From: a virus
Direction: 5' to 3' (one strand)
IMG/VR virus record: IMGVR_UViG_3300017925_000171
Length of the DNA stretch: 24,102 nucleotides
Shown here piece by piece: positions 4,884 through 24,102 of the stretch. The notes under the pieces were generated by a model, which did not search any database, was not told the origin of the DNA, and saw nothing but the letters and a program-made list of their open reading frames with translations. The position numbers were made by a program, and so were the translations under genes. Within the stretch, counting starts at the first letter, position 1, and each line of letters opens with the position of its first letter.

Positions 4884-6212
4884 TCATGCCCGCGCGTCCG
4901 CGTCCGACGGCATCTCGGTCCAGGTCCGCCCGTCGATAACGGCCTTGTCGTGGGACCGGGCGTCGGGCCACCCTCCGAGTTGTTTGAGGAAGAAAGGGAT
5001 GCGAACGGCAGCGCAGGCATCGCGTAGAGACCTAGCCCAATCCAATTCCATGGGACGAGACCGTGGTCCGCTCTCACCCCCGCAAATTACCCAAGAAATC
5101 CCCAGCGCTGGCCAAGGCAAATCTTTGAGATGGCCCTGTCGGACACCCCGTAACGCGCCGCGATATCCTTCAACGACTCCCCGGCGAGTCTGCGTTTCCG
5201 AATCTCCAAGACCTGAGAGTTCGTTAGCTTCGCCATGACATTGGCCTCTCCCTGTTGGTCCAGTCGCCCGACTTTGAGCACACGAAGCGCGTGGACCACA
5301 TTCCCAGATGGCGTCACTAGTTCGAGGTTGTTTGGCCGATTGTCCCACTTTCGGCCGTTCCTGTGATTGACGGTCAATCCGTCGGGTATCGGGCCATTGA
5401 AGTGGCGATAGACCAATCGGTGGGCCAGAGCGAAGTATCGTATCGAATCGAACATGGCTCTCACCTGGAGATAACCAGAAGGTACCCGGTGCTCCGCCCT
5501 CCGCCGTGGGCACGCGATCATCCGAGATGATTTCCCTCTCCCAGGACCGCGGTTCGCAGCAACCCTCCAAACCCGGCCCTTCGAATCTATATTCAGGTCT
5601 CCCCTCATAACGGCTTTGTAGACCATCTCCTCTCGGTGTAGGGTTGCGACCATTGATTGGGCTATATTTAAGCCAAGTAGATAAGTCTACTGGTCCGAGA
5701 AGTGGTTCGCAGGAAAGGAACCGTATGCGCGCGTGAACGTTGAGGAGTGGGGGAATCCGTCGGTTCGCGTTTGTTTGGTTTTCGACACTGGCCCCCAGCC
5801 AGACATTCGGGTAGCCGTCGCCCCAATCGGGGGGGAGCATGTGGGGGATGTTCTCGGGGCGTTTGGTGAGGACCTGGAACACGTGCCGCTTCGCCTCGCG
5901 CATCACGTCCCACACCTCGGCGCGGAACTCTTTCGGGACTGTTTCGTGGAACAGGTCGCTCCGGGAGTTGACGAAGACCATCCTAGGTTCTCTCCACTGG
6001 AGAGGTAGTTTGAGCCGGTCTGGGAAGCAACGAACATTGAGTGGCGCGTTGGGGTGCGTCCAAGGAAGGTACGGCTTGCCCTCCTGCGTCATTCGGAACC
6101 TCCTGTCGAGGGTCTCGGCGTAGCAGTGCCGGCAGCCTTCGCTGACCTGAGAGCAACCCACGATGGGGTTCCAAGTGGACTCGGTCCACGCAATCCCGGT
6201 CTTAGCGCCCAT
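4884..6212 (-). CDS. DUF5131 / phage Gp37-Gp68 family protein (radical-SAM-like three-Cys motif) with an approximately 190-codon in-frame insertion
   Basis: TGIAWTESTWNPIVGCSQVSEGCRHCYAE, VFVNSRSDLFH, FQVLTKRP, NVWLGASVENQ, RFLSCEPLLGP, then after the insert WVICGGESG and PFFLKQLGG. Start reassigned to ATG 6212 (GAGGT SD). Confidence 0.9.
   Translation of the reverse strand: MGAKTGIAWTESTWNPIVGCSQVSEGCRHCYAETLDRRFRMTQEGKPYLPWTHPNAPLNVRCFPDRLKLPLQWREPRMVFVNSRSDLFHETVPKEFRAEVWDVMREAKRHVFQVLTKRPENIPHMLPPDWGDGYPNVWLGASVENQTNANRRIPPLLNVHARIRFLSCEPLLGPVDLSTWLKYSPINGRNPTPRGDGLQSRYEGRPEYRFEGPGLEGCCEPRSWEREIISDDRVPTAEGGAPGTFWLSPGESHVRFDTILRSGPPIGLSPLQWPDTRRIDRQSQERPKVGQSAKQPRTSDAIWECGPRASCAQSRATGPTGRGQCHGEANELSGLGDSETQTRRGVVEGYRGALRGVRQGHLKDLPWPALGISWVICGGESGPRSRPMELDWARSLRDACAAVRIPFFLKQLGGWPDARSHDKAVIDGRTWTEMPSDADARA
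5087..5653 (-). CDS. HNH homing endonuclease (HNH_3-like plus C-terminal HTH) nested in the +1 frame inside DUF5131
   Basis: GYLQV...AHRLVYRHFNGPIPDGLTVNHRNGRKWDNRPNNLELVTPSGNVVHA, then GEANVMAKLTNSQVLEIR...IAARYGVS. Alternative start is ATG 5626. Confidence 0.9.
   Translation of the reverse strand: MVATLHREEMVYKAVMRGDLNIDSKGRVWRVAANRGPGRGKSSRMIACPRRRAEHRVPSGYLQVRAMFDSIRYFALAHRLVYRHFNGPIPDGLTVNHRNGRKWDNRPNNLELVTPSGNVVHALRVLKVGRLDQQGEANVMAKLTNSQVLEIRKRRLAGESLKDIAARYGVSDRAISKICLGQRWGFLG
5663..5672 (-). promoter_or_regulatory. Candidate internal TATA box for the nested HNH gene
   Basis: Minus strand CTTAAATATA, formed by the L-K-Y codons of DUF5131, about 38 nt upstream of ATG 5626. Similar spacing to the promoter at 1378-1384. 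Confidence 0.4.
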
Positions 6213-6813
6213 GCCCAACCTCTCGGAGGACATCGACGAGCTTGGCTCTCGCCGTGTTCGCATGTTTCTCAGCATCGTTGAAGGAGATCGCCTGCGTCTG
6301 GACGACGTCGTCCAGGGCTGAGCGGACCCGGTCCTTCAGTAGTCTCTCCCGATCGAATTCCTTAACCAGCGCCCGGGCCGCAACCCGATAAGGGGCTCCT
6401 GGGTCATCCGACCACTGGAACTCCTCGGAGGCGTCCGTCGGTGCGACGATGTGGCCGCGCCCATAATCGTCCTTACCCGCGCTCGGCCAGCTGCGCTTCA
6501 ACGACACGAGGTAAGCGTTGGAGTCGTCGGCCCATTCGAGCACGTAGGCCCGGTCGATGTCGACCTCCGCCGGATAGGCCTCGGCGATGAACATCGGCAC
6601 GGCGCGCACATAGTCGAGCCACTCCGGAACAACGGTTTTGGTGACGCTGCCGAACTCGGGCTCTGTCGGCGGGTGCCCGAGATTGAAGGCCTCGGGAGGT
6701 CCCGCGATCGCATTGAGGACGGACCGGGTCTCGGCCAGAATCGGCCCGGACAGAACGGGTGCGATGACCTGGATGGGCTCGGGCCCGTAGGGATTCTGGA
6801 TAGTCTGGGTCAT
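6202..6813 (-). CDS. Hypothetical protein (203 aa)
   Basis: ATGA overlap upstream, GC3-rich codons, overlaps the DUF5131 start. Confidence 0.75.
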   Translation of the reverse strand: MTQTIQNPYGPEPIQVIAPVLSGPILAETRSVLNAIAGPPEAFNLGHPPTEPEFGSVTKTVVPEWLDYVRAVPMFIAEAYPAEVDIDRAYVLEWADDSNAYLVSLKRSWPSAGKDDYGRGHIVAPTDASEEFQWSDDPGAPYRVAARALVKEFDRERLLKDRVRSALDDVVQTQAISFNDAEKHANTARAKLVDVLREVGHGR

Positions 6814-7803: not shown

Positions 7804-8142
7804 TCAGGATGTCCCTGAGCCGAGCGGCGACCGTCCCCGGGGAAAGGGCCCAGAAAGGGCCCATAGGGCTTGGTTGACATCGGTGTCGTTGGCCTCGACG
7901 TCGGAGAGGAACCGCTCGACGTCCTTCCGAAGCGGCGCGTCGAGGTGCAGGTACTTGTAGACCTCGTCCATGGACCGCTGGATCACGACCGCTCCTTCGG
8001 TCTCGATCCCGTCTTCCCAATGTTGGAGGACGGTCATCAGGTGGTCATGTGCATAATGCGCATGGGCGTTGACCTCGTCATCGAAGGAATGGGAGGCGGA
8101 GTCGGGGCAAACGAACCCGCAGGAGCAGGGGTCAGCGGTCAC
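7804..8142 (-). CDS. Hypothetical protein with N-terminal Cys/His cluster
   Basis: CSCGFVC...HAHYAHDH. TAGTG overlap with the HerA-like gene. Confidence 0.65.
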   Translation of the reverse strand: MTADPCSCGFVCPDSASHSFDDEVNAHAHYAHDHLMTVLQHWEDGIETEGAVVIQRSMDEVYKYLHLDAPLRKDVERFLSDVEANDTDVNQALWALSGPFPRGRSPLGSGTS

Positions 8143-9707
8143 TACCCCTCCTTCTTGACCAGAATCCGGTCCCGAGCTGCGGCCACGAGAACGTAGCCCT
8201 TGTCGATGTTCCGAAGGAACCCTTGCTCCGCGAACTTCCCGAGGATCCGGTCCATGTTGTTCCAGCCCGCGCCGCCGCTCCAGGTTCCCCAGCCTCGGGC
8301 TCGGAACTCCTTGGTGACCTCGTTGACGGATTTCCGCTCGTCAAAGAAGCCCTGGGCGATGAGCAGGGCGACGCGCCCGTTGTTGTCGTCCCCGGAGGCC
8401 TCGACGCGGACCTCGCGGACGTGGACCGTCATCGATGGGACCTCGTGGGTGACGTGAAGGTCGACGCGCTCGCGGTCCTTGGGCTCCGACCCGTGTCCCG
8501 CCAGCCCCCGCATGATGGTATCTTGTCCGGGGGCGGCCTGGGCCCGGTCGGCGGCGTGTTCCAGCTTGGACCGAGGCGTTTGAAGCGCGATGGTCTCCAC
8601 CAGGTGGTCGTTCTGTGCCTTCAGCTGAGCAATCTCCTGGGACTGTCGCGCAATCGTGTCCTTCAGTCGCTTCCTTTCTTCCTCGTCCACATCCTTCTCC
8701 TTGAGCTTCGGTCGGAACAGTTTCGCCATCTCCTCGGCGGAGTCGATACCCTCGGCGACCCGGACGGCGTGAAGGTCGTCGAGCCAAGTGGGCTGCGCGT
8801 AGACCTTGGTGACCTGCTCCCCGCGAACGCAGAGGAACTGCCCGAGGCCCAGGCTCCGAACGGCGTCGGGTTTGACGGACCGGTCGGGAGCCATCTTCAG
8901 GACGCGCTTGATCTCGAGGTCCAGGACCTGCCGGCCGAAGAGCCAGGTGCCGACCGACCGCATGACGTCCATGTCGAGTCCCGTGAGGCTCTGCGAGTCG
9001 ACCCAGAGGAAGCGCTGCACCCGTGCGCCCTTTCGGATCAGGTTCTCCAGGGAGAGTTTGGCGGGGGTCCTGCGGTCTTCGGGGATGAAGTCTCGGGCCT
9101 CGGGGAGGACCACGATGACGGGAGCGTTGATGTGGCCCTCCATGAGCCAATCGACGGTGGCGGCGATGACGAGCTGCTGGACGGCCGGGGAGAGGCCCTC
9201 GAGGTCCATGACGGAAAGCGTCTGCGCGGTCAGGTTCGGTTGGGGGTCGAAGTGGACGGACTCGAGGGCCTCGCGGATCTCGGAAACGTACTCGTTGAGC
9301 TCGGTGTAGACTTTCTCTTGGAAACTGCCGGAACGGGCCTTGGACAGGGCGGTCCGAATGTTCGCATGGACGCTGGCGAGGTCGTGGGTTCCGCGGGTGA
9401 GGCGGATGAGGTCGCCGCGGTAGAACTTGGCCTTCTCCATCAGGTGGGCGGAGATGAGACCCTCGACGAACCGCCAGTCGGTCCGCTCGCGGAAGTAGGG
9501 GGAGATCCGCTTGGCTCCCGGGAAGGAGAGCTCCCCGCGGCTGGTCCGGAACGCGATGGCGGTCTCTCCGGCACGGGCCATGAACCCCTCGAGGGCGGTC
9601 GTCTTGCCGCTCATCTGGGTCAGGCCGGTGATCCCGAGGTGCTGGGGTTGGAAGGCGACCTCCTTGCCGGACGGGACCTCGAACCCGATGCGGAAGCTAC
9701 CGGTCAT
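8142..9707 (-). CDS. HerA/FtsK-superfamily-like P-loop ATPase with coiled coil and C-terminal wHTH-like domain
   Basis: HLGITGLTQMSGKTT (Walker A variant), VIVVLPEARDFIP (Walker B variant), LIRKGARVQRFLWVDSQ (HerA-type R-K-G...hhhhSQ), FGRQ, and LGLGQF. Confidence 0.75.
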   Translation of the reverse strand: MTGSFRIGFEVPSGKEVAFQPQHLGITGLTQMSGKTTALEGFMARAGETAIAFRTSRGELSFPGAKRISPYFRERTDWRFVEGLISAHLMEKAKFYRGDLIRLTRGTHDLASVHANIRTALSKARSGSFQEKVYTELNEYVSEIREALESVHFDPQPNLTAQTLSVMDLEGLSPAVQQLVIAATVDWLMEGHINAPVIVVLPEARDFIPEDRRTPAKLSLENLIRKGARVQRFLWVDSQSLTGLDMDVMRSVGTWLFGRQVLDLEIKRVLKMAPDRSVKPDAVRSLGLGQFLCVRGEQVTKVYAQPTWLDDLHAVRVAEGIDSAEEMAKLFRPKLKEKDVDEEERKRLKDTIARQSQEIAQLKAQNDHLVETIALQTPRSKLEHAADRAQAAPGQDTIMRGLAGHGSEPKDRERVDLHVTHEVPSMTVHVREVRVEASGDDNNGRVALLIAQGFFDERKSVNEVTKEFRARGWGTWSGGAGWNNMDRILGKFAEQGFLRNIDKGYVLVAAARDRILVKKEG

Positions 9708-15827: not shown

Positions 15828-17519
15828 CTAGTGCGGCGCCGGGTAATCGAACTTCTCGCCATCGAGGAGCTGCTTCACCGTCCGGACCTGTAGGCGCATG
15901 TACGGCTCCGACCGGGTCAGACTCGCTTGGGCCGGGCGATAGGTTCCGACGCTCGCGGCCTCCTTGGTCATCTCCTTCGTCGCGTCGTTGAGGGTGATGA
16001 AGAACCCGAAGGTCGCGTTCTGGCGGCGCATCGTCCCCGACAGGTCCCGAATGTCCCGCGAGCTCGTCTTCCCGCCCTTGACTTGGGCGAGGATCAGGCG
16101 CTCCGTGCCGTCGACCTCCTGATACCTGAGCCGCCCGTCGATACCCTGGTCGGCCCCCTTCTGCGGCTTGCCATCCCTCATGTTCGGGTGGACCCCGGCC
16201 AGTCCGCAGGCCCAGGCCTGGAATTGGTACGGGTCTTGGGTGAACAGCTCCTCGGCTCCGGCCTCGTCCTTGGGCAAACCCACGACCTCATAGGTCCGCG
16301 GGTTTACGCCATCGGCCGTGAGCCGCGCACGGATGATGGATACCGCAACGTGGGTGATGTCAATCCCAACCCACCGACGCCGAAGACTCTGAGCGGCGGC
16401 AATTGCCGTACCGCATCCACAGAATGGGTCGAGGACAACTTGGCCGGTATCCGTACTCGATTCGATTATCCGTTTTAGGAGCCCTCTTGGCTTCTGGGTT
16501 TGAAACCCAGTCTTCTCGTCTCCATCTTCGAGCCAGGCAACATCCTCGTCGATTCCGTCCTCGGTTCCAAAAAGTATCCCGCGGGTGCCTGGTTGGTACG
16601 CCCAGATATCCTGGTAAGGGACCCCGGTACCAATGTACTGCTTGTAGGTCGGCATACCGGATTCGCTCTTCGGCATCTCAATTGCGCTGTCAGGCTGGTC
16701 GGCGAGGTAGTCAAGCTTCTGCTGGAGGGTCATGTTCTCGCCCCCGTTGGGCAACAGTTTCTTGAGCGAGCCCGCAATGGCCCAGTGCCGACCGCGTTCG
16801 GTAGGGTCGAACCCCCTCCAGGCCTCGCCGCTCGAACCGTGACTCACCCCGGCGCCAGTTAGCGTCTGCTGCCGGAAGAGGCCCTTATCGTCAGAGCCTT
16901 TGAACCGGCCCTCGATGTAGCTCTTCGGGTATGGGCGCCTTCCAGGATGGAACATGGACTTGTCGCTCTTGGTATAGAACAGGATTGTGTCGTGAATCGG
17001 CCCGAATTGGCGTGTCAACTTGTTGTGGGCAGTCTTACGGCGCCATACGATTTCGCTCCGAAAGTTCTCAGGATGGAAGGTCGAATCCAATAGAATCTTC
17101 AGGTAATGACTGGCCGTCGGGTCGCAGTGCAGATAGATGCTCCCCGTGGATCTCAGCACCCGTCGGAGCTCCGCGAGTCGCGGTGCCATCATGCAGAGGT
17201 ACGCGAGCATGTCGTTCTCGCCGAGTATTGTCCGTAGCCCGGAAACCGTGTCGGCAAGCTTCCCGCCGGCCTTCAGGATCTCGTCGTACTCCTGCTGGGC
17301 TCTCGGACCCCAACCCCAGGTGTCGTTGAAGGCGTTGACCTGCGCCTCCGAACCCTTGAAGACGGCGTTGTAGTTCCGCTGGGAGTTGAACGGAGGATCG
17401 AGGTAGACCAGGTCTACCGACTCGTCCTTGATGTAGCGGCGCAGGACGTCGAGGTTGTCTCCGTAGTAGAGGGTGTTCGTCGCTCCGCGTTGGTCTTTCT
17501 TCCCTTGCATGTTCTTCAC
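15828..17519 (-). CDS. Site-specific N4/N6 DNA methyltransferase (beta class) fused to a C-terminal Mrr-like PD-(D/E/Q)xK nuclease domain
   Basis: LYYGDNL, VYLDPPFNS (motif IV), GSIYLHCD, FQTQKP, and VLDPFCGCGT (motif I). C-terminal GADQGIDG...LAQVKGG...RDIRDLSGTM...GFFITL. Confidence 0.92.
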   Translation of the reverse strand: MKNMQGKKDQRGATNTLYYGDNLDVLRRYIKDESVDLVYLDPPFNSQRNYNAVFKGSEAQVNAFNDTWGWGPRAQQEYDEILKAGGKLADTVSGLRTILGENDMLAYLCMMAPRLAELRRVLRSTGSIYLHCDPTASHYLKILLDSTFHPENFRSEIVWRRKTAHNKLTRQFGPIHDTILFYTKSDKSMFHPGRRPYPKSYIEGRFKGSDDKGLFRQQTLTGAGVSHGSSGEAWRGFDPTERGRHWAIAGSLKKLLPNGGENMTLQQKLDYLADQPDSAIEMPKSESGMPTYKQYIGTGVPYQDIWAYQPGTRGILFGTEDGIDEDVAWLEDGDEKTGFQTQKPRGLLKRIIESSTDTGQVVLDPFCGCGTAIAAAQSLRRRWVGIDITHVAVSIIRARLTADGVNPRTYEVVGLPKDEAGAEELFTQDPYQFQAWACGLAGVHPNMRDGKPQKGADQGIDGRLRYQEVDGTERLILAQVKGGKTSSRDIRDLSGTMRRQNATFGFFITLNDATKEMTKEAASVGTYRPAQASLTRSEPYMRLQVRTVKQLLDGEKFDYPAPH

Positions 17520-18211
17520 TCTTGGATGGTTGTTCCGATGGACTGCGACTGGATTCTGGCGGCGGACCCGGTGGTTGCCGCCGGGTCCTCCGCCCCCCCA
17601 CCGTTCAGCTGATCCACGGGCCCGGGGCCATGAGGGCGACGTGGGGCGACACGTCTTTTCCCGGGCTTGGGGTCTGACGGTGGAGGCGTGATGTGAGGGT
17701 TGTACACCCGGAGCGGGATGCCGCGCCAGGCGAGGTGGATGAGCAGCTGTTTGAACCAGTACGGGCCGTCGCCGTACAGTGGGGCCTTGAAGTCGTAGAT
17801 GAGGTACTTCGTCGCGGCGTTCCTCCTACCCTCGGCTTTGTCCTTCTCGGTCTGGCCGTGGGGACCATCGACCCAGGGGGGAAAGTCTTCAACGACCTTC
17901 GCAACCCCCCCTATGGCGACGGCCAGTCGTCGACAGGTTGGTCCCTCGTTCTGACCGAGCAAGGCGAGGATGTCGCTGGTTTCTCCCATGTGGTCAATGA
18001 AGATGATGTTGCCGTTGGGCTCGATCATCACCCTGTGGAGCGGGGCCCCGCGCCCGCCGCACTTGAACCGAAAGGTGTAGGACCGCCCCTCTTTGAGCTC
18101 CTTGACTACCTCGGTCGCCTGGTTGTTGAGGCAGCCGCGCTCCGACCTCTCGGTCGTGCTGACCGGGGTGGGGGTCTCCTCGAAGAGGTTGACGACGTGG
18201 CGCACTGTCAC
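17516..18211 (-). CDS. Hypothetical protein (231 aa) with a C-H-H-C domain, paralog of 19371..19835
   Basis: GTG 18211 (GTGA overlap). RFKCG...PLHRV...PNG...DH...LGQ...PTC. Confidence 0.75.
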   Translation of the reverse strand: MTVRHVVNLFEETPTPVSTTERSERGCLNNQATEVVKELKEGRSYTFRFKCGGRGAPLHRVMIEPNGNIIFIDHMGETSDILALLGQNEGPTCRRLAVAIGGVAKVVEDFPPWVDGPHGQTEKDKAEGRRNAATKYLIYDFKAPLYGDGPYWFKQLLIHLAWRGIPLRVYNPHITPPPSDPKPGKRRVAPRRPHGPGPVDQLNGGGAEDPAATTGSAARIQSQSIGTTIQE

Positions 18212-18699
18212 GTTCCCCCCCACTTGGTCCCGCCGTCGGTCTTGAGCCCGACTTGCCGGCAGAGCGAGCGGTACTTCTCCGCGAGGTCGGCGTCCACCCA
18301 TGCCGTCGGGGATGCCTTCGTGAAGTAGGCGACCCGGACGGCGACGGGGCCTGGAACCATCTCCCACCTGCGGCCACGCCTTACGCGTCGGCGGCGGCCG
18401 TCCGTGCTGACGGCGACCCAGAGACCCGGTGAGCAATCGCAGCCGAGGTCCCAGCAGCCGGCGTGGGAGTGGGACTCGTTGGGGTGGTAGATCCGGGACG
18501 CGCTGGCGCTCAGACCCGACTTGAAGTCGATGCTCGGCCGTAGCACGGCCCGGTGAACGACCCCGTTTCGGGTGTAGGAGCGGATGGTCGCCCCGAGAGC
18601 TCTCGCCTCAACCTCGAAGTCCCGAAGGGTGTGGATCGGCTCGCTTCCCCTGGCGAGGTGCCCGAGGACGCTGGCGATGGGGGGTTCAGTATCGGTCAT
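18208..18699 (-). CDS. Hypothetical protein (163 aa) with a His/Cys cluster
   Basis: HSHAGCWDLGCDC; GC3-rich codons; overlaps both neighbours. Confidence 0.7.
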   Translation of the reverse strand: MTDTEPPIASVLGHLARGSEPIHTLRDFEVEARALGATIRSYTRNGVVHRAVLRPSIDFKSGLSASASRIYHPNESHSHAGCWDLGCDCSPGLWVAVSTDGRRRRVRRGRRWEMVPGPVAVRVAYFTKASPTAWVDADLAEKYRSLCRQVGLKTDGGTKWGGT

Positions 18700-19039
18700 G
18701 GGGTCCTTGGGTGGGTTGGGTCACGGGGGTCAGAGTGATGTTCGTGACGTTCGGGGCCGGCCACATCTTGTGCTTCTTCTTCGGGTCACCGATTTGGACG
18801 CGCAGAGGTTTGTTGTAGTGCGTAGCGGCGCCGCATCTGTCGCAGTGGAGCGAGAATACGAGCCATCGGCCTTCGCTGAAGTCCCACTCCTTGGCGCCAT
18901 CGACCTCGGTGACCGGGCTCGAGACTATCGTCCCGCCGCACCCGGTGGGGCAGGGACCGACCTCGCGGCCCCCTCCGATGGTGTCGAGGATCTTCGCGGT
19001 GGTCCGCTCGCGGGAGGGAGGACGTCGGCGCTTGCTCAT
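18686..19039 (-). CDS. Zn-ribbon protein (117 aa)
   Basis: CPTGCG...CDRCG; ATGA overlap. Confidence 0.75.
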   Translation of the reverse strand: MSKRRRPPSRERTTAKILDTIGGGREVGPCPTGCGGTIVSSPVTEVDGAKEWDFSEGRWLVFSLHCDRCGAATHYNKPLRVQIGDPKKKHKMWPAPNVTNITLTPVTQPTQGPHDRY

Positions 19040-19374
19040 CGGCCAGCCTCCTCTTCCTCAGCACGGAACCGACGGAGGAGTTTATCCTCAGTTCCGTTCA
19101 TCTTTCCAATGTCACTGATGGCGACCAGCGGCTTCTCGTAGTTGGGGTACAGCACCAGTATGGATACCGTTCCATCGCATCGGGAGGAGTGGGTGACAGC
19201 GCCGTGAACCGCAATCTTGGCGGAATGGGTTCGGACCCCGTTAGCGTGCTCTACCCACCGGAGGGACGCTCCCCGAGCTCTCTGGCAACAGGACCAGAAA
19301 TAGGTCCGCCCCATGCCTACGACCAGCGTGTCGAGGATCTCACGTGTCGATTGGGTGATGGGAGGTACGTTCAC
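19036..19374 (-). CDS. Hypothetical protein (112 aa)
   Basis: GTG 19374 (GTGA overlap), ATGA overlap downstream. Confidence 0.65.
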   Translation of the reverse strand: MNVPPITQSTREILDTLVVGMGRTYFWSCCQRARGASLRWVEHANGVRTHSAKIAVHGAVTHSSRCDGTVSILVLYPNYEKPLVAISDIGKMNGTEDKLLRRFRAEEEEAGR

Positions 19375-19835
19375 GCCAGCACCCCCACGGTCTCCATCGC
19401 GGGCATGGCCTCGGTCAGCGTCGGTCGGAGGCTGGCCCCGAACGCGATGAGGTGATAGCCGAGCCTCGACCACTGGGGCACCGTCCGCTTCTTCCGCAGG
19501 AACTCCCGACAGACCTCCTTGGCGGCATCCTGGGGCGCGTTGAGCGCCATCACGATGTCGCCGCAGGTGGGCCAGTCGGGCTGTCCGAGCATCTGGAGTA
19601 CGATCGAGACGTCGTCGTGGTAGTGGTCCGGGAAGTGGACCTCGCCGTTCGGGAGGAACTGGACGCGGTGGAGGGGGCCGACCCGGGAGCCGCATCGGAA
19701 CCGGGCCTCGACGGGGAACCCCTTGCGGAGCTTCACGACCCAGTGGGCGACCTCCGGGGTGGAGAACCCTCGGGCGAGCTTCTCCGGGTTCGTGACGGGG
19801 ACCGGGATCTTGGCGAAGACGGAGAGAGTGGTCAT
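19371..19835 (-). CDS. Hypothetical protein (154 aa) with a C-H-H-C domain, paralog of 17516..18211
   Basis: ATG 19835 (ATGA overlap). RFRCG...PLHRV...PNG...DH...LGQ...PTC. Confidence 0.75.
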   Translation of the reverse strand: MTTLSVFAKIPVPVTNPEKLARGFSTPEVAHWVVKLRKGFPVEARFRCGSRVGPLHRVQFLPNGEVHFPDHYHDDVSIVLQMLGQPDWPTCGDIVMALNAPQDAAKEVCREFLRKKRTVPQWSRLGYHLIAFGASLRPTLTEAMPAMETVGVLA

Positions 19836-20134
19836 GGGATCTCCCCCGTCTTCCGCGCTTTCCATTCGTGGTCGCCGCACCCGAGGGTCAGGAGGCCTTT
19901 CTCGTCTTGTACGGCGACCTGAGTGTCCCACTCGATGTCGGTGGTACCCTCCCATTGGAGGTGCGGGTTCTCGTCGTTAGGGCCGTGGTTGACGAGCCGG
20001 GCGGTGGCCTGGACAGTATCGAGCTCCCACTGGGGCAGCCGATTACATGTCGGGCAGCGAAGCGGGGAGAAGGGTTTCTCAGCCTTCAAGGCGTCGAGGG
20101 CGGCGGCGGTCGAGGGCTTCAGACCGGCGCTCAT
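19832..20134 (-). CDS. Zn-binding hypothetical protein (100 aa)
   Basis: CPTC...WEGTTDIEWDTQ...CGDHEW. Confidence 0.75.
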   Translation of the reverse strand: MSAGLKPSTAAALDALKAEKPFSPLRCPTCNRLPQWELDTVQATARLVNHGPNDENPHLQWEGTTDIEWDTQVAVQDEKGLLTLGCGDHEWKARKTGEIP

Positions 20135-20349
20135 TCGACCCTCCCCTCGACTCGGTTCGGTGGGACCTTGAACAGTTGGCTCCCAACCTTGACCGCGAGC
20201 GTTCCCTTGGGGAGCGCGTCGAACATGACCTCGCCCTCGTAGTACTTCCGAACGCCCACTTTGGCCTGGGTCCAGAACCGAACTTTGTCGCCGGTCCGGT
20301 ACTGCGCGAGGGCGGTGAGGACCTCGTTGGTCCGGTGCTCCTCGCTCAT
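20131..20349 (-). CDS. Small SH3/KOW-like beta-barrel protein (72 aa), array member 4
   Basis: VLTALAQYRTGDKVRF...GEV...AVKV...KVPPNRV; ATGA overlaps. Confidence 0.7.
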   Translation of the reverse strand: MSEEHRTNEVLTALAQYRTGDKVRFWTQAKVGVRKYYEGEVMFDALPKGTLAVKVGSQLFKVPPNRVEGRVE

Positions 20350-20597
20350 GGGTCCTTCTGGATTACGTATCTCGGGACGGCGCGGAGGATCAGGTCGTAC
20401 GGAATCTCGGCGATGAAGTCCCGACGACCGCTGTTGAGCAGGAGCCGGACCGTGACCGACCCCCGGATCCGCCCGCGGTGCTCGATGACCCCCATGTATT
20501 CCTCGCGGCCACCGACCGGGAGCTTGACCCAGACATGGTCCCCGACGGTGAAGTTCGAGAGGGCGCGTAGGGCCTGGTCGAGCGCGGGGTCGGTCAT
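20346..20597 (-). CDS. Small SH3/KOW-like beta-barrel protein (83 aa), array member 3
   Basis: ALRALSNFTVGDHVWV...GVI...VTVRL...EIPYDLI. Confidence 0.7.
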   Translation of the reverse strand: MTDPALDQALRALSNFTVGDHVWVKLPVGGREEYMGVIEHRGRIRGSVTVRLLLNSGRRDFIAEIPYDLILRAVPRYVIQKDP

Positions 20598-20866
20598 GGG
20601 GACCCCCGCGTTGGGCGAGCGGGGCCGAGGACGCACTCCGGGGGAAAGACCCAATGGTCATGGACGACGACCCGGTCCTTCGTGCGCCGGGTGGTGAAGC
20701 AGACGGAGCCGGGCTGGTCGAACTCGCGGTCACTGAATCTCTCGAAGACCGCGATGCGGGCTCGCGCCTCCCCTGGGAACCGTACTCTAATGCGGTCGCC
20801 TGGTCCGTAGGCCCCGAGGGTCGAGAGGACTTGGGAGACCTGCCCGGCCTTGGACTTTCGCTTCAT
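20594..20866 (-). CDS. Small SH3/KOW-like beta-barrel protein (90 aa), array member 2
   Basis: VLSTLGAYGPGDRIRV...AVF...VCF...VFPPECV. Confidence 0.7.
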   Translation of the reverse strand: MKRKSKAGQVSQVLSTLGAYGPGDRIRVRFPGEARARIAVFERFSDREFDQPGSVCFTTRRTKDRVVVHDHWVFPPECVLGPARPTRGSP

Positions 20867-21096
20867 GCGGCGACCTCCTGGACCCGGTCCCTCACCAGTT
20901 CGAGAGGCACGATGTAGATGACGTGCCAGCCGGGCATGTCGAGGGCTATGGAGATTCGGCCGGGCTCGGGGGTGAACTCTCGGACGACGACGCCGGGCTG
21001 TTCGATGGTCCACGTGTGGTCGGGACGGAACGTGACCCTGTCGCCCACCTGGAAGGAGAGCGCGGCGAGGACCGCCTTGGTCGTCGGCTCGCTCAT
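20863..21096 (-). CDS. Small SH3/KOW-like beta-barrel protein (77 aa), array member 1
   Basis: VLAALSFQVGDRVTF...GVV...ISIAL...IVPLELV. Confidence 0.7.
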   Translation of the reverse strand: MSEPTTKAVLAALSFQVGDRVTFRPDHTWTIEQPGVVVREFTPEPGRISIALDMPGWHVIYIVPLELVRDRVQEVAA

Positions 21097-21512
21097 GGTT
21101 CCCTCCCCATCGCCAGGAGCGCAACCTGCGTCTTGATGGCCTCTCGGAGCCGGACCGCGTCCTCGGCGGTGAAGTACGTGGGGTGCGGCTTGATCGCCTT
21201 GAGGGGGTCCTTCTCCTGGATGAACCGGGCGCCGTCCCAGAGGTGGCTCTTGTCGTGGTGCTCTCGGTCGTACACCTCGCCATCGAATATCTTGGGGTCG
21301 GACAGGTCCCGGTGCGCGTGAACGGCGTACGCGGCGGCTTCGTCGATGGTGGCGAAGCCCCGGAAGATGGGAAGGCCGTCCACGTCCAGCCCCTCGGAGT
21401 GCTTCATCTGGGCGGTCCACGGGAAGCACCGGACGACGAACAGGGACGCCTCATCGGAAAGGATGCCCTGGTGGACGTGGTAGTGAACGGGAGGTAGTGG
21501 GTCGGGCGTCAT
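21093..21512 (-). CDS. Hypothetical protein (139 aa), paralog of 15220..15597
   Basis: ATG 21512 (ATGA overlap). HVH and FATIDEAAAYAVHAHRD motifs. Confidence 0.7.
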   Translation of the reverse strand: MTPDPLPPVHYHVHQGILSDEASLFVVRCFPWTAQMKHSEGLDVDGLPIFRGFATIDEAAAYAVHAHRDLSDPKIFDGEVYDREHHDKSHLWDGARFIQEKDPLKAIKPHPTYFTAEDAVRLREAIKTQVALLAMGREP

Positions 21513-21883
21513 GCGGAGCCCCCCTCGGCAATCGTGGAGAGGATGGTGTTGGTCTGTTCGATGTGTCGGGCAACGGATATTTCGCTGGCTCCGGCGATGG
21601 GCTCGTTGCCGTGGTCGAGCAGGCAGAAGACCCAGCCGGCGCGCTGGACCGAGTAGCGGCAATCGGGGTTGACGCAGTAGTAGCAACCCTCGACCAGACC
21701 CACCTCGCGGCCAGATCGGCGGAGATAGCCCGAGCTCGCCCGCACGAGAGGACCACAGTTCGGGCACCGCATCGACCAGCCGTAGCTCACCGAGTGCTTG
21801 CCCAGGACTCGCCTCGGGTGGTAGCGGTCGTAGCCGGAGAACCGCCCGTCGGGGTGGCGGGGGAAGGCGATGAATCGCGTCAT
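21509..21883 (-). CDS. Zn-binding hypothetical protein (124 aa)
   Basis: CPNC...CYYCVNPDC; ATG 21883 (TGATG overlap). Confidence 0.7.
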   Translation of the reverse strand: MTRFIAFPRHPDGRFSGYDRYHPRRVLGKHSVSYGWSMRCPNCGPLVRASSGYLRRSGREVGLVEGCYYCVNPDCRYSVQRAGWVFCLLDHGNEPIAGASEISVARHIEQTNTILSTIAEGGSA

Positions 21884-22386
21884 CAGTACTGCCGGCACCC
21901 CCCACAGGTATCGAGGAACTCGGCGAACTCGAGAACCCAGTCGGTCATCCCCTTCTCCGGCACCGCGACGTCGGCGTCGTCGGGAATCTTCGGCCGCCTG
22001 TCGCCACCAATCTTGAACAGGAGGCCGGAGATCCCCTCCTGCGTGGCCCTCTTGACCGGGGCGGTCCCGGAGATCACTTGGAGCGCCTCTCGGGTCTCCT
22101 TCGGAACGTCGCCCTTGGGTTGATCGAGGACGACGGGCCAATGGAAGCATCCGCCGGAGTACGGCGTGTCCGAAACGGAGAGTATCCGCAGGCGGTTCTC
22201 GCTGACCACGGTGCGGAGGAGCTTCGCCCACGCCTTGCCGGTCTTGACGTGGATGAGCTTGCCGTCGTTTCCCCCGGCCCAGTCGGTCATGTCGGCCCCG
22301 GCCTGGTCGAGGATGGAGGCCATGTACGAGTGACCCGACCAATTGGGATGGGACGAGCCGTTGCGGCCCGCGTAGTCCATCCCCAT
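21883..22386 (-). CDS. Phage hypothetical protein (167 aa)
   Basis: TAGATG junction; C-terminal VLEFAEFLDTCGGC motif recalled from phage proteins. Confidence 0.75.
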   Translation of the reverse strand: MGMDYAGRNGSSHPNWSGHSYMASILDQAGADMTDWAGGNDGKLIHVKTGKAWAKLLRTVVSENRLRILSVSDTPYSGGCFHWPVVLDQPKGDVPKETREALQVISGTAPVKRATQEGISGLLFKIGGDRRPKIPDDADVAVPEKGMTDWVLEFAEFLDTCGGCRQY

Positions 22387-22779
22387 CTACGGTCCCCCCT
22401 CCTGGGCTTCAGCCCTAGCCTGTCGAACCTCTGACCTACGACTGTCAAGATGGAGGGAATTGGGATTCCTCTCCGACCCGAGGATGTAGTTCGCCATTCT
22501 CGAGTCCCGCCGAATCTTGGCCATGATGAGGAACCGCCAATGGGGCTTCTGGACCCCGGTGAGCTGGAGCCCACGGTCGATGAGCTGGGCGCCGTCGCTC
22601 TGCTCCCAGTCCCCGCACTCGCGGCAGATTCGGACGGAGGGATCGACCAAGGACGGGACCCAAGTACTCGACCCCTTGACGGGGAGGTACTCGTTCCCGC
22701 AGTAGTAGTGGCACCTGCGCCGCTTCGTGCCGCCGATGGTGGCGACGACGTCGCGGGCGGTGGCTTCGGTGGCGCTCAC
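22387..22779 (-). CDS. Zn-ribbon protein (130 aa)
   Basis: CHYYCG...CRECG; GTG 22779 (GTGA overlap). Confidence 0.7.
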   Translation of the reverse strand: MSATEATARDVVATIGGTKRRRCHYYCGNEYLPVKGSSTWVPSLVDPSVRICRECGDWEQSDGAQLIDRGLQLTGVQKPHWRFLIMAKIRRDSRMANYILGSERNPNSLHLDSRRSEVRQARAEAQEGGP

Positions 22780-23267
22780 GGGCTTTCCCCCTTCACGATG
22801 ATTTGCTCGGCTTCGTCCAGCGTCCCGGCATGTCCCTGTTTGACAAGATGGGCTTTGAACCCGACGCGACACTCCTCGTTCTTGACCGCCAGTTTTCCCG
22901 CGTCCTTGATGGCGCTGTTGCCGATTGGGAGGTCAACGAAGGCGGTCGTACAGAATACACAGTCCTGCGCGATTACGCTGTCCAAGTGGCTCGGGTGCTT
23001 GATGAAATGGAGTGTCATCGACCGGCGGATGATGCCCGGGGTCCGCTCGCGCTGTCGGAGGCGGTTGACCTTCGCGTTGGCATTGACCTTCTGGGCAAAG
23101 AGCTTCTGGCGGCGGACGACGGCCTTGGAGTAGGGACCCGCGAGACGGTGTTCCTCGGCCCGGGCGTCCTTCCATTCGGCGACCGCGGCATCGCGTTCCA
23201 CGATGGCGGTGGCGAGGGCCGGGGATCGGATGGCCCGAAGGACCTCGGGGGTGGTGGGGTCGCTCAC
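22776..23267 (-). CDS. Hypothetical protein (163 aa), coiled coil plus C/H cluster
   Basis: GTG 23267 with GGAGG SD (GTGA overlap); CVFC...C...H. Confidence 0.7.
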   Translation of the reverse strand: MSDPTTPEVLRAIRSPALATAIVERDAAVAEWKDARAEEHRLAGPYSKAVVRRQKLFAQKVNANAKVNRLRQRERTPGIIRRSMTLHFIKHPSHLDSVIAQDCVFCTTAFVDLPIGNSAIKDAGKLAVKNEECRVGFKAHLVKQGHAGTLDEAEQIIVKGESP

Positions 23268-23722
23268 TCTTCCTCCTTGGGGCAGGGGCCGAAATCGGCC
23301 CCGAAGACCGAGCCGGTGGCGAGGACCGTAAGGGCCTGTTGGAGCGGTCGCCGACTCGGGTTGGACCCCTTCGTGAACCCCCACGAGCCGATGATGCGGT
23401 TTCGGTGGGTGAGGACCCACTTGGACCCGAGGGTGTGGAGCAGGTACTCCCCGTTGTCGCCGTTGTCCCCATCGGTCCGGTCCTCCCCAAGGTAGGCGGA
23501 TGTGCCGTCGCGTTGCCGCGCCAGGACGGCGAGGGACAGGAGGACGTTGGGCGGCGTGCCGTCGTTTCCATCCTTCTCGTGGCGCTTCGTATCGCGGACG
23601 AGCGCGAGCATGGCGTCCTCGGCTCCGCCCCAATGGCGGAAGAGGGTGGTCTTGAACCGATGGTCGGGGGCGTGGGGGGAGATGAGATGCTCGCAGACGC
23701 GAATCGAGCCTCGGTCTCCCAT
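23264..23722 (-). CDS. Phage hypothetical protein (152 aa)
   Basis: MGDRG...LFRHWGG...DNGEY resembles a recurrent phage family (MGxR...YxHW...DNGxY). Confidence 0.75.
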   Translation of the reverse strand: MGDRGSIRVCEHLISPHAPDHRFKTTLFRHWGGAEDAMLALVRDTKRHEKDGNDGTPPNVLLSLAVLARQRDGTSAYLGEDRTDGDNGDNGEYLLHTLGSKWVLTHRNRIIGSWGFTKGSNPSRRPLQQALTVLATGSVFGADFGPCPKEEE

Positions 23723-24049
23723 CTACCGCTCCTCCCCAATCATCGCCAGCACCTTCGCCGTTTCCACGGCCCCGGTCCACCGGACCCGAAGGGCGGGTTC
23801 GTGGGTGGGGTCCACGTCGAACTGGACAGGGAAGGTGCGGAACGACGAGGCGACGTACCAAGCGGCGACCTCGTCGATGTTGCCCTCGGTCCGACCGATG
23901 ACCGCCTTCATGGCGGCGCGGTGTTCGGGGTCGAGGTTCTCGTGGAGGGCGGCCGGGATCTGCTCGGGCGTTCCCGCCCAGAAGAGGCCCAGGGAGCGTG
24001 GCCCGATGAGCCGAATCTTCCAGCGGCCTTCGGTGTCTCCGTCGCTCAC
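23723..24049 (-). CDS. Hypothetical protein (108 aa)
   Basis: GTGA overlap with GGAGGT SD; TAGATG junction downstream. Confidence 0.7.
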   Translation of the reverse strand: MSDGDTEGRWKIRLIGPRSLGLFWAGTPEQIPAALHENLDPEHRAAMKAVIGRTEGNIDEVAAWYVASSFRTFPVQFDVDPTHEPALRVRWTGAVETAKVLAMIGEER

Positions 24050-24102
24050 AGGAGGACCTCCTCCGCCGTCATCTTGGCGATGAACACCTTGCTGAAATCC
24101 AG
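24046..24102 (-). CDS. 3' end of a gene truncated by the window edge
   Basis: LDFSKVFIAKMTAEEVLL*; its TGA overlaps the next GTG start. Confidence 0.5.
   Translation of the reverse strand: MDFSKVFIAKMTAEEVLL

What the first reader, a model, noticed from the sequence alone, without database searches (positions are those of the whole stretch)
17516..24102. A shared terminal helix tag, T-x-x-[VI]-L-x-[AT]-[LI], on about 14 unrelated small proteins in one gene block
Seen near N-termini: TTPEVLRAI (22776), TARDVVATI (22387), TTKAVLAAL (20863), QVSQVLSTL (20594), ALDQALRAL (20346), RTNEVLTAL (20131), STAAALDAL (19832), STREILDTL (19036), TTAKILDTI (18686), PIASVLGHL (18208), and somewhat further in QATEVVKEL (17516). 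Seen near C-termini: ETAKVLAMI (23723), QTNTILSTI (21509) and PLQQALTVL (23264), plus a partial TAEEVLL in the truncated gene. The domains attached to the tag differ (SH3-like barrels, Zn ribbons, coiled coil, CHHC domain). The codons vary synonymously, so the constraint looks protein-level. The tag is essentially absent from replication and enzyme genes left of 15 kb. Established: T4 internal proteins share a short N-terminal capsid-targeting sequence. Inference: a portable sorting or docking signal marking a cargo or effector set, for example for virion packaging and ejection or for binding a common hub. No such system is known to me in archaeal viruses.
Basis: partly seen in the sequence, partly recalled or inferred. 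Interest (0 to 1): 0.82.

Follow-up and report, generated by a model that had tools for sequence, protein, structure and literature searches.

The report
Shared helix tag on archaeal-virus proteins
About two thirds of 22 neighbouring small genes of an uncultured virus of Thermoplasmata archaea carry the same short helix near one end although their main bodies differ, which looks like a common docking handle whose reader is unknown and may be a chaperone/protease module encoded just upstream.

Summary
The strict motif T-x-x-[VI]-L-x-[AT]-[LI] occurs 6 times in the block (0.018 expected from shuffles), always in the coding frame. Five hits lie at residues 6-14. A softer leave-one-out profile finds it at the N-terminus of 14 of 22 block genes, against 5 of 44 elsewhere in the element and 6 of 71 in two related, GC-matched viruses.

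The block runs about 2.5 kb past the window's right end. It starts directly after a MoxR AAA+ gene, a CHHC-domain gene and a zincin+vWA (DUF2201) gene.

Orthologues in two related viruses keep the pattern through conservative changes. An RNA-level cause found no support, so the constraint is on the protein.

"Unrelated" is only partly right. Six proteins are Tudor-fold paralogues and four carry one CHHC domain. Between families, however, only the helix aligns, and it lies outside the Tudor barrel. The same helix pattern also sits inside the CHHC domain.

Best reading (0.42): a portable docking helix read by one partner, possibly the adjacent vWA/zincin-MoxR module. Main rival (0.35): a structural helix spread by duplication. 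Virion packaging has no support.

Other agents of this scan reported comparable shared tags on small proteins of other uncultured viruses.

The parts
24046..24102 (-). 3' end of an 85-aa gene that starts beyond the window (L001 9420-9677). It has a strict N-terminal tag at residue 5 outside the window. Its C-terminal tag-like end overlaps the next gene's ribosome-binding site.
23723..24049 (-). 108-aa gene with a near-strict C-terminal tag at 23738-23761 and no N-terminal tag
23264..23722 (-). 152-aa gene with no N-terminal tag and only a weak tag-like stretch at 23321-23344
22776..23267 (-). 163-aa gene with a strict N-terminal tag at 23229-23252 (residues 6-13)
22387..22779 (-). 130-aa Cys-rich (Zn-ribbon-like) gene with a degenerate N-terminal tag at 22735-22758, followed by Gly-Gly
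21883..22386 (-). 167-aa gene with no clear tag
21509..21883 (-). 124-aa Zn-ribbon-like gene with a strict C-terminal tag at 21530-21553
21093..21512 (-). 139-aa gene with no N-terminal tag
20131..21096 (-). Four tandem Tudor-fold paralogues (77, 90, 83 and 72 aa). Each has the helix at residues about 6-17. The tags lie at 21058-21081 (strict), 20816-20839, 20559-20582 and 20308-20331 (strict).
19832..20134 (-). 100-aa CxxC...CxxH Zn-ribbon gene with an N-terminal tag at 20087-20110. Thr1 and Ala7 of the tag are invariant in three orthologues.
19371..19835 (-). 154-aa CHHC-domain gene. A tag-like helix precedes the first Cys (19737-19760). A second lies between the second His and the last Cys (19587-19610).
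19036..19374 (-). 112-aa Cys/His-rich gene with a strict N-terminal tag at 19324-19347
18686..19039 (-). 117-aa Zn-ribbon-like gene with a strict N-terminal tag at 18977-19000, followed by Gly-Gly-Gly and a Cys knuckle
18208..18699 (-). 163-aa gene with a degenerate N-terminal tag at 18655-18678. The hydrophobic pattern is kept in the L015 orthologue.
17516..18223 (-). 235-aa CHHC-domain gene, last of the block. Its tag-like helices lie at 18095-18118 and 17957-17980.
6706..6729 (-). The only strict motif outside the block, at residue 29 of the 203-aa gene 6202-6813

Best explanation
The tag is a real, lineage-specific, protein-level element. It is a two-turn amphipathic helix with a Thr N-cap, hydrophobic residues at positions 4, 5 and 8, and a small residue at position 7. 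A Gly-rich turn usually follows.

It is attached near the N-terminus (residues 5-20), and in three cases near the C-terminus, of about two thirds of 22 translationally coupled small genes. Their bodies are Tudor-like barrels, zinc ribbons, a CHHC domain and orphan folds.

I think it most likely works as a common docking handle: one partner recognises the same helix face on many fast-evolving small proteins of the early region. The best candidate reader is the module encoded directly upstream. That module is a MoxR AAA+ ATPase, a CHHC protein and a protein joining a zincin-like HExxH domain to a vWA domain. vWA-MoxR pairs are proposed to capture a peptide of a client and remodel it.

Shown: the motif, its enrichment, its conservation in orthologues, its independence of the Tudor fold, and the gene neighbourhood. 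Inferred: that it docks at all, and to what.
For: - Enrichment and position.
- Orthologues in L018 and L015 keep Thr1, the [VI]-L pair and the last [LI]. They vary the free positions and swap within the allowed sets.
- Between families only the helix aligns: the Zn-ribbon family against the Tudor family gives 16 columns at E 1.4e-4, with nothing beyond.
- A profile of the six barrel paralogues hits Tudor/Agenet repeats from profile position about 12-16 onward, that is, after the helix.
- In the AF2 model the helix is residues 4-14, with lower confidence (about 58-76) than the barrel (about 86). Solved Tudor domains align to residues 15-72 only, at Z about 8 and rmsd 1.4-1.8 Å.
- The tag occurs at either end of proteins and is followed by Gly-rich turns.
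- The block begins right after MoxR, the CHHC protein and DUF2201. In 45 homologues of DUF2201 the HExxH and the MIDAS D-x-S-x-S are invariant. The trio and tagged orthologues recur in L015.
- The literature proposes that the vWA domain captures a client peptide. It also describes zincin plus small, fast-diverging proteins with a conserved terminal peptide attached to vWA-MoxR systems (PMC7159879).
Against: - No binding was tested, because the complex predictor was unavailable.
- The motif is soft. Only 7 of about 17 instances are strict.
- Part of its spread is paralogy: six Tudor-like genes and four CHHC genes.
- The same pattern is an internal helix of the CHHC domain between presumed zinc ligands. 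There it must be structural.
- Helix-then-Cys spacing in the Zn-ribbon proteins resembles that arrangement, but only weakly (E 0.058).
- Other DUF2201 contexts carry no array of tagged small genes (L019).
- Two related viruses show no tag, but only 21 kb around the ATPase gene was seen in each.
Confidence: 0.42

Rival explanations
1. Structural helix spread by descent. The helix-turn module is a building block of a lineage-specific set of small beta-rich or zinc domains. Tandem duplication and fragment shuffling inside the block copied it, perhaps from the CHHC domain. It is kept because it completes each mini-domain's hydrophobic core. There is no common partner.
For: - The pattern sits inside the CHHC domain between the invariant second His and the last Cys in all eight members. 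One member there is a strict match.
- The Tudor-family tag aligns best to that internal helix.
- The tag plus Gly turn plus Cys of gene 18686 aligns to the CHHC helix-loop-Cys.
- Paralogy is evident.
- In the barrel family the helix residues are among the few invariant columns.
- Only 5-8 residues separate the helix from the first strand or the first Cys.
Against: - The same non-hydrophobic preferences (Thr at position 1 rather than Ser, Asp or Asn; Ala or Thr at position 7) recur on different folds. Packing against different surfaces does not predict that.
- The helix is not part of the Tudor fold and is modelled with lower confidence than the barrel.
- It can sit at the C-terminus.
- The cross-family alignments are short and weak, with no body similarity.
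Confidence: 0.35
2. Capsid-targeting or ejection signal. The tag sends the proteins into the virion, as the N-terminal signal of phage T4 internal proteins does, so that they are delivered with the DNA.
For: - T4 internal proteins are a diverse set sharing only a conserved targeting sequence (PMC3012670).
- The tagged proteins here are small, diverse and fast-evolving.
Against: - The tag is not at a fixed N-terminal position, and it also occurs at C-termini and inside a domain.
- No conserved cleavage site follows it.
- The block lies with methylase and replication-type genes on one coupled transcription unit, not with any recognisable capsid, portal or prohead-protease gene in the 34 kb seen.
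Confidence: 0.08
3. Recognition mark for a host machine or a modification. Examples are an unfoldase/degradation signal or a phospho-Thr motif of the pT-x-x-[ILV] kind read by FHA domains. These resemblances come from my memory and are not tool results.
For: Strong preference for Thr at position 1 with an aliphatic residue three positions later.
Against: - No kinase, FHA domain or protease other than the zincin-like domain was seen in the element.
- The segment is predicted helical, whereas FHA ligands bind extended.
- Nothing was tested.
Confidence: 0.06
4. Chance, composition or a nucleotide-level signal. Examples are an anti-Shine-Dalgarno hairpin for translational coupling, or recombination boundary sequences.
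For: - The V-L and I-L pairs are mostly written xTC CTC, which could pair with the ribosome-binding site.
- The genome is GC-rich, with abundant Ala, Leu, Val and Thr.
Against: - Shuffles expect 0.018 hits against 6 seen.
- There are no hits in the other five frames.
- xTC CTC is simply the commonest spelling.
- Folding energies around the starts do not differ from synonymous resamples: mean z 0.08 for tagged genes against -0.06 for the others.
- Orthologues differ in residues and codons.
Confidence: 0.03

Closest known systems
Peptide-processing modules attached to vWA-MoxR ternary systems: a zincin metallopeptidase plus small, rapidly diverging proteins with a conserved terminal peptide (Kaur, Burroughs, Iyer, Aravind 2020, PMC7159879)
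   Same: A MoxR AAA+ gene, a vWA gene and a zincin-like HExxH domain lie next to small, fast-diverging proteins that share only a short terminal peptide. There is also a conserved third component between MoxR and vWA.
   Different: - This is a virus of archaea, not a bacterial conflict system.
- The zincin is fused to the vWA protein (DUF2201).
- There are about 20 tagged genes instead of one.
- The peptide is mostly N-terminal, helical and of a different sequence.
- No radical-SAM/SPASM or AP-ATPase partner was seen.
- Cleavage is unknown.
Capsid-targeting sequence of phage T4 internal proteins (PMC3012670)
   Same: One short conserved peptide on a set of otherwise diverse small viral proteins.
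   Different: The T4 signal works during prohead assembly at the N-terminus. Here the offset varies, some copies are C-terminal or internal, and no link to a capsid module is seen.
Tudor / Agenet / chromo-barrel domains
   Same: The bodies of six tagged proteins have this fold: Z about 8, rmsd 1.4-1.8 Å over 52-54 residues, plus profile hits to Tudor/Agenet repeats.
   Different: They are single-domain viral proteins of 72-116 aa with an extra N-terminal helix. The solved Tudor domains that align lack this helix. The aromatic cage was not examined.
Shared terminal tags on small proteins of other uncultured viruses, reported by earlier agents of this scan (unpublished AI notes)
   Different: The peptide, the position (here mostly N-terminal) and the virus lineage differ. 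Here a candidate reader is adjacent and an internal copy of the helix exists in a Zn domain.

Membership tests
T4-type capsid-targeting sequence | Signal at the extreme N-terminus of each cargo protein | tested here: not met
   The tag starts at residues 5-14. Three copies are C-terminal, and further copies are internal to the CHHC domain.
T4-type capsid-targeting sequence | Cargo present in the virion and signal removed by the prohead protease | not testable with these tools
   This needs virion proteomics. No prohead protease or capsid gene was found in the 34 kb seen.
vWA-MoxR peptide-processing module (PMC7159879) | Adjacent MoxR AAA+ and vWA genes | tested here: met
   L001 4204-5325 matches AAA_5/AAA_3/bpMoxR. 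L001 6290-7555 matches DUF2201 with an invariant MIDAS.
vWA-MoxR peptide-processing module (PMC7159879) | Zincin-like metallopeptidase | tested here: met
   PF13203 domain with invariant H69, E70 and H73 in 45 homologues. It is fused to the vWA domain rather than being a separate gene.
vWA-MoxR peptide-processing module (PMC7159879) | Small, rapidly diverging precursor proteins | tested here: met
   There are no homologues outside the clade. Paralogues are 22-31% identical.
vWA-MoxR peptide-processing module (PMC7159879) | Conserved peptide at the C-terminus (FxSxx, RxD, acidic or FtsH-associated type) | tested here: not met
   The peptide is mostly N-terminal and of a different sequence.
vWA-MoxR peptide-processing module (PMC7159879) | Peptide released by the peptidase | not testable with these tools
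   This needs biochemistry or N-terminal proteomics.
PIP-box clamp-binding peptide | Q-x-x-[LIM]-x-x-[FY]-[FY] (consensus from my own knowledge) | tested here: not met
   There is no Gln at position 1 and no aromatic pair in the motif.
Tudor/Agenet fold (bodies of six tagged proteins) | Five-stranded SH3-like barrel superposable on solved Tudor domains | tested here: met
   AF2 mean pLDDT is 79. PHF1, PHF19 and MTF2 Tudor domains align at Z 7.5-8.2 to model residues 15-72. The profile hits Agenet/Tudor repeats.
Sm/Hfq fold (N-terminal helix plus barrel) | Helix and barrel together superposable on Sm or Hfq | tested here: inconclusive
   There is only a weak Foldseek row for Hfq (TM 0.41). It is not among the top VIA-align rows.

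The most novel reading that the evidence does not exclude
The helix is an address label read by the virus's own MoxR / CHHC / zincin-vWA machine. This virus-encoded chaperone-peptidase would capture, remodel or trim about twenty diversifying small effector proteins (Tudor-like readers, zinc ribbons) through one shared handle. That would be a viral counterpart of the bacterial vWA-MoxR peptide systems and one concrete reader for the shared tags now turning up in several uncultured viruses.
Probability: 0.15. Interest if true: 0.85.

Novelty: new variant of a known kind. Interest (0 to 1): 0.55.

Why it matters
If the helix is a docking handle, a virus of poorly known soil and peat archaea has a modular way to plug fast-evolving small proteins into one machine.

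It would also give a function to the widespread but unstudied DUF2201/MoxR pair of viruses. And it would link this case to similar tags noted elsewhere in this scan.

If instead the helix is only structural, the finding reduces to a lineage-specific expansion of mini-domains. That is of modest interest.

Tried and rejected
- Anti-Shine-Dalgarno hairpin or other RNA structure at the tag codons: no difference from synonymous resamples. The codon pair is the default spelling.
- A simple one-site-per-sequence Gibbs sampler did not converge on any motif. I replaced it with exhaustive pattern enumeration.
- No match in cultured phage genomes by DNA or by the ATPase protein.
- No relatives in IMG/VR for the ATPase, the CHHC gene or the Zn-ribbon family.
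- The metagenome scan found only the same element and L018.
- Gene 19371 has no homologue outside its own cluster.
- No whole genome is held for the window.
- Pfam and PHROGs give nothing for the tagged proteins.
- PDB sequence searches with the CHHC and Zn-ribbon profiles gave nothing.
- ESM Atlas look-alikes for the CHHC protein scored under 0.9.
- A fold search of the CHHC model found nothing above Z 3.3. The model is only moderate and its second helix has low confidence.
- Stop-codon read-through joining a C-terminally tagged gene to the next gene was considered and dropped. TAG is an ordinary stop here (9 of 52 genes), and stop-then-start junctions are in frame by construction.
- DUF2201 contexts elsewhere: L019 has no small-gene array. 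Cultured phages give only weak, unannotated hits.
- Complex prediction (DUF2201 protein with a tagged Tudor-like protein) was not available, so no verdict exists.
- The Atlas structure library was not available.
That table is therefore not given.


Full report
**What the window is.** The 24.1-kb window has 65% G+C. It is coding on the minus strand throughout, and most genes are joined by 4-base start/stop overlaps. A 521-aa P-loop protein (8142-9707) has homologues on long metagenome contigs and in genome bins labelled Thermoplasmata. Cultured phage genomes do not match. The same element occurs at 99% or higher identity in many peat and soil assemblies. I treat it as a virus or provirus of Thermoplasmata-like archaea. 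That host call rests on binning, not on proof.

**Extent of the block.** Locus L001 is the same element in the opposite orientation and gives 10 kb beyond the window's right end. The run of small genes starts there, directly after three genes:
- a MoxR-type AAA+ ATPase (L001 4204-5325);
- a 323-aa protein with no family;
- a DUF2201 protein (L001 6290-7555).

The DUF2201 protein joins a zincin-like domain to a vWA domain. In 45 homologues the HExxH and the MIDAS D-x-S-x-S are invariant. Twenty-two genes follow, down to window position 17516. A DNA methylase fused to an Mrr-like domain comes next.

**Is the motif real?** Yes.
- The strict motif occurs 6 times in the window part of the block against 0.018 expected. 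No shuffle out of 20,000 gave more than 2.
- A seventh strict copy lies in the part of the block outside the window.
- All copies are in the coding frame, and the five other frames have none.
- Blind enumeration of patterns over N-terminal segments returns this very motif as the best one, beyond all 40 shuffled sets.
- A leave-one-out profile scores 2 or more at the N-terminus of 14 of 22 block genes, against 5 of 44 other genes of the element.
- In two related viruses of the same G+C, 6 of 71 genes reach that score.
- About 120 kb of related loci read in six frames show two strict hits, neither N-terminal.
- Six of the seven strict block hits lie in the first 25 residues.

Four fit poorly.

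**Protein or RNA?** The V-L and I-L pairs are mostly spelled xTC CTC, which could in principle pair with the ribosome-binding site. That spelling is simply the commonest in this genome. Folding energies around the starts do not differ from synonymous resamples.

Orthologues settle the matter.
- L018 is a 1.5-kb fragment of a relative with five syntenic genes. Its orthologues of genes 20131 and 19832 carry strict tags with different residues at the free positions and swaps within the allowed sets. Its orthologues of 19036 and 18686 keep a slightly degenerate form.
- L015 has a DUF2201 protein 61% identical to this one. Its Tudor-like, Zn-ribbon and 18208-like orthologues also keep the pattern.

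The constraint is therefore on the protein.

**Are the bodies unrelated?** Partly.
- Six genes form one family: four in tandem at 20131-21096 and two outside the window. Its profile finds Tudor/Agenet repeats among 1.8 billion representatives, with matches that begin after the helix.
- The AF2 model has a helix at residues 4-14 and a barrel at 22-70. Solved Tudor domains superpose on residues 15-72 (Z about 8, rmsd 1.4-1.8 Å). In this family the helix is thus an add-on to a known fold.
- Genes 17516 and 19371 share a Cys-His-His-Cys domain. The 323-aa protein upstream and a 310-aa paralogue inside the block carry the same domain. Nothing solved resembles this domain.
- Several others are zinc-ribbon-like.
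- Profile-profile comparisons between families align the helix and nothing else.

Inside the CHHC domain, between the invariant second His and the last Cys, lies a helix of the same pattern. In one relative it is a strict match. A second tag-like helix precedes the first Cys. AF2 predicts both as helices, the inner one with low confidence. The Tudor-family tag aligns best to that inner helix. The tag, Gly turn and Cys of gene 18686 align to the helix, loop and Cys of the domain, but weakly. In at least one setting, then, the helix is structural, and copying of a helix-turn module by duplication is a serious alternative.

**How it most likely works.** Two readings remain.
- Docking handle. This reading is favoured by several observations:
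  - The same polar preferences (Thr at position 1, Ala or Thr at position 7) recur on different folds.
  - The helix lies outside the Tudor fold and has lower model confidence than the barrel.
  - It occurs at either end of proteins.
  - It is kept in orthologues.
  - The gene context fits. vWA-MoxR pairs are proposed to capture a client peptide and remodel the client. Some bacterial vWA-MoxR systems carry a zincin peptidase plus small, rapidly diverging proteins with a conserved terminal peptide (PMC7159879).
- Structural helix spread by descent. This reading is favoured by the internal copy, the evident paralogy, the short linkers and the softness of the motif.

I put docking at about 0.42. 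Within that, the adjacent module as reader is about 0.15. Structural descent is at about 0.35.

Virion packaging has no positive evidence, and the variable position argues against a T4-like signal (for the T4 facts). The one test I could have run, a controlled complex prediction of the DUF2201 protein with a tagged protein, was not available.

**Relation to earlier notes of this scan.** Notes on this window had already listed the four barrel paralogues and the CHHC pair. I confirmed both and extended them. Agents working on other viruses reported similar shared tags, and two of them named the vWA-MoxR peptide modules as the closest known thing. I took that as a lead. I then read the paper and checked that MoxR, vWA and a zincin domain are really adjacent here, which those other cases did not necessarily have.

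**Verdict.** This is a new variant of a known kind (a shared peptide on diverse small viral proteins) with a testable candidate reader. Interest is moderate.

Noticed in passing
L001 4204-7555 (same element, beyond the window's right end); also L015 7933-11272 and L017 629-3989: A conserved trio: a MoxR AAA+ gene, a gene of about 320 aa carrying the CHHC domain, and a DUF2201 gene (zincin HExxH plus vWA with an intact MIDAS). A second copy of the CHHC gene (310 aa, 40% identical) sits inside the tagged block.
   Followed up: partly
window junctions at 24046/24049, 23722/23723 and 21509-21512: Each of the three genes with a C-terminal tag is followed by a gene that lacks an N-terminal tag. No N-tagged gene is preceded by a C-terminal tag (3 of 7 against 0 of 14, Fisher p 0.026). 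This gives roughly one tag per gene junction. It might reflect shifted gene boundaries or paired products.
   Followed up: partly
L007 8409-12533 and L008 8899-11728: In two related viruses, the small genes around the ATPase gene and the ATPase gene itself end in similar basic-aliphatic-acidic tails. These overlap the next gene's ribosome-binding site. It is a different, C-terminal regularity.
   Followed up: no
L016 11283-13108: In a more distant element (57% G+C, DUF2201 49% identical), DUF2201 is followed by four tandem paralogues. Each has an N-terminal helix, then a CPxC knuckle, and a shared C-terminal end.
   Followed up: no
L018 1-350 against window 20131-23267: In the relative L018, the gene resembling 22776-23267 is directly followed by the orthologue of 20131-20349. 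Eight window genes, including three Tudor-like paralogues, are absent there. The block's gene content is therefore fluid.
   Followed up: no
L001 1-400; L008 16733-17728; L015 4298-5176 and 6473-7564: UbiA-family prenyltransferase genes, next to small membrane proteins, recur in three related elements. They look like genes of the element rather than host flank.
   Followed up: no
window 15828-17519 (-): A 563-aa N6/N4 DNA methylase with a C-terminal Mrr-type restriction-endonuclease-like domain lies immediately after the block.
   Followed up: no
window, many gene starts (for example 20597, 21096, 23267, 12291, 13478): Many proteins of this element and of L015 begin Met-[Ser/Thr]-[Asp/Glu]-Pro. 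This is a genome-wide N-terminal habit, distinct from the tag.
   Followed up: no
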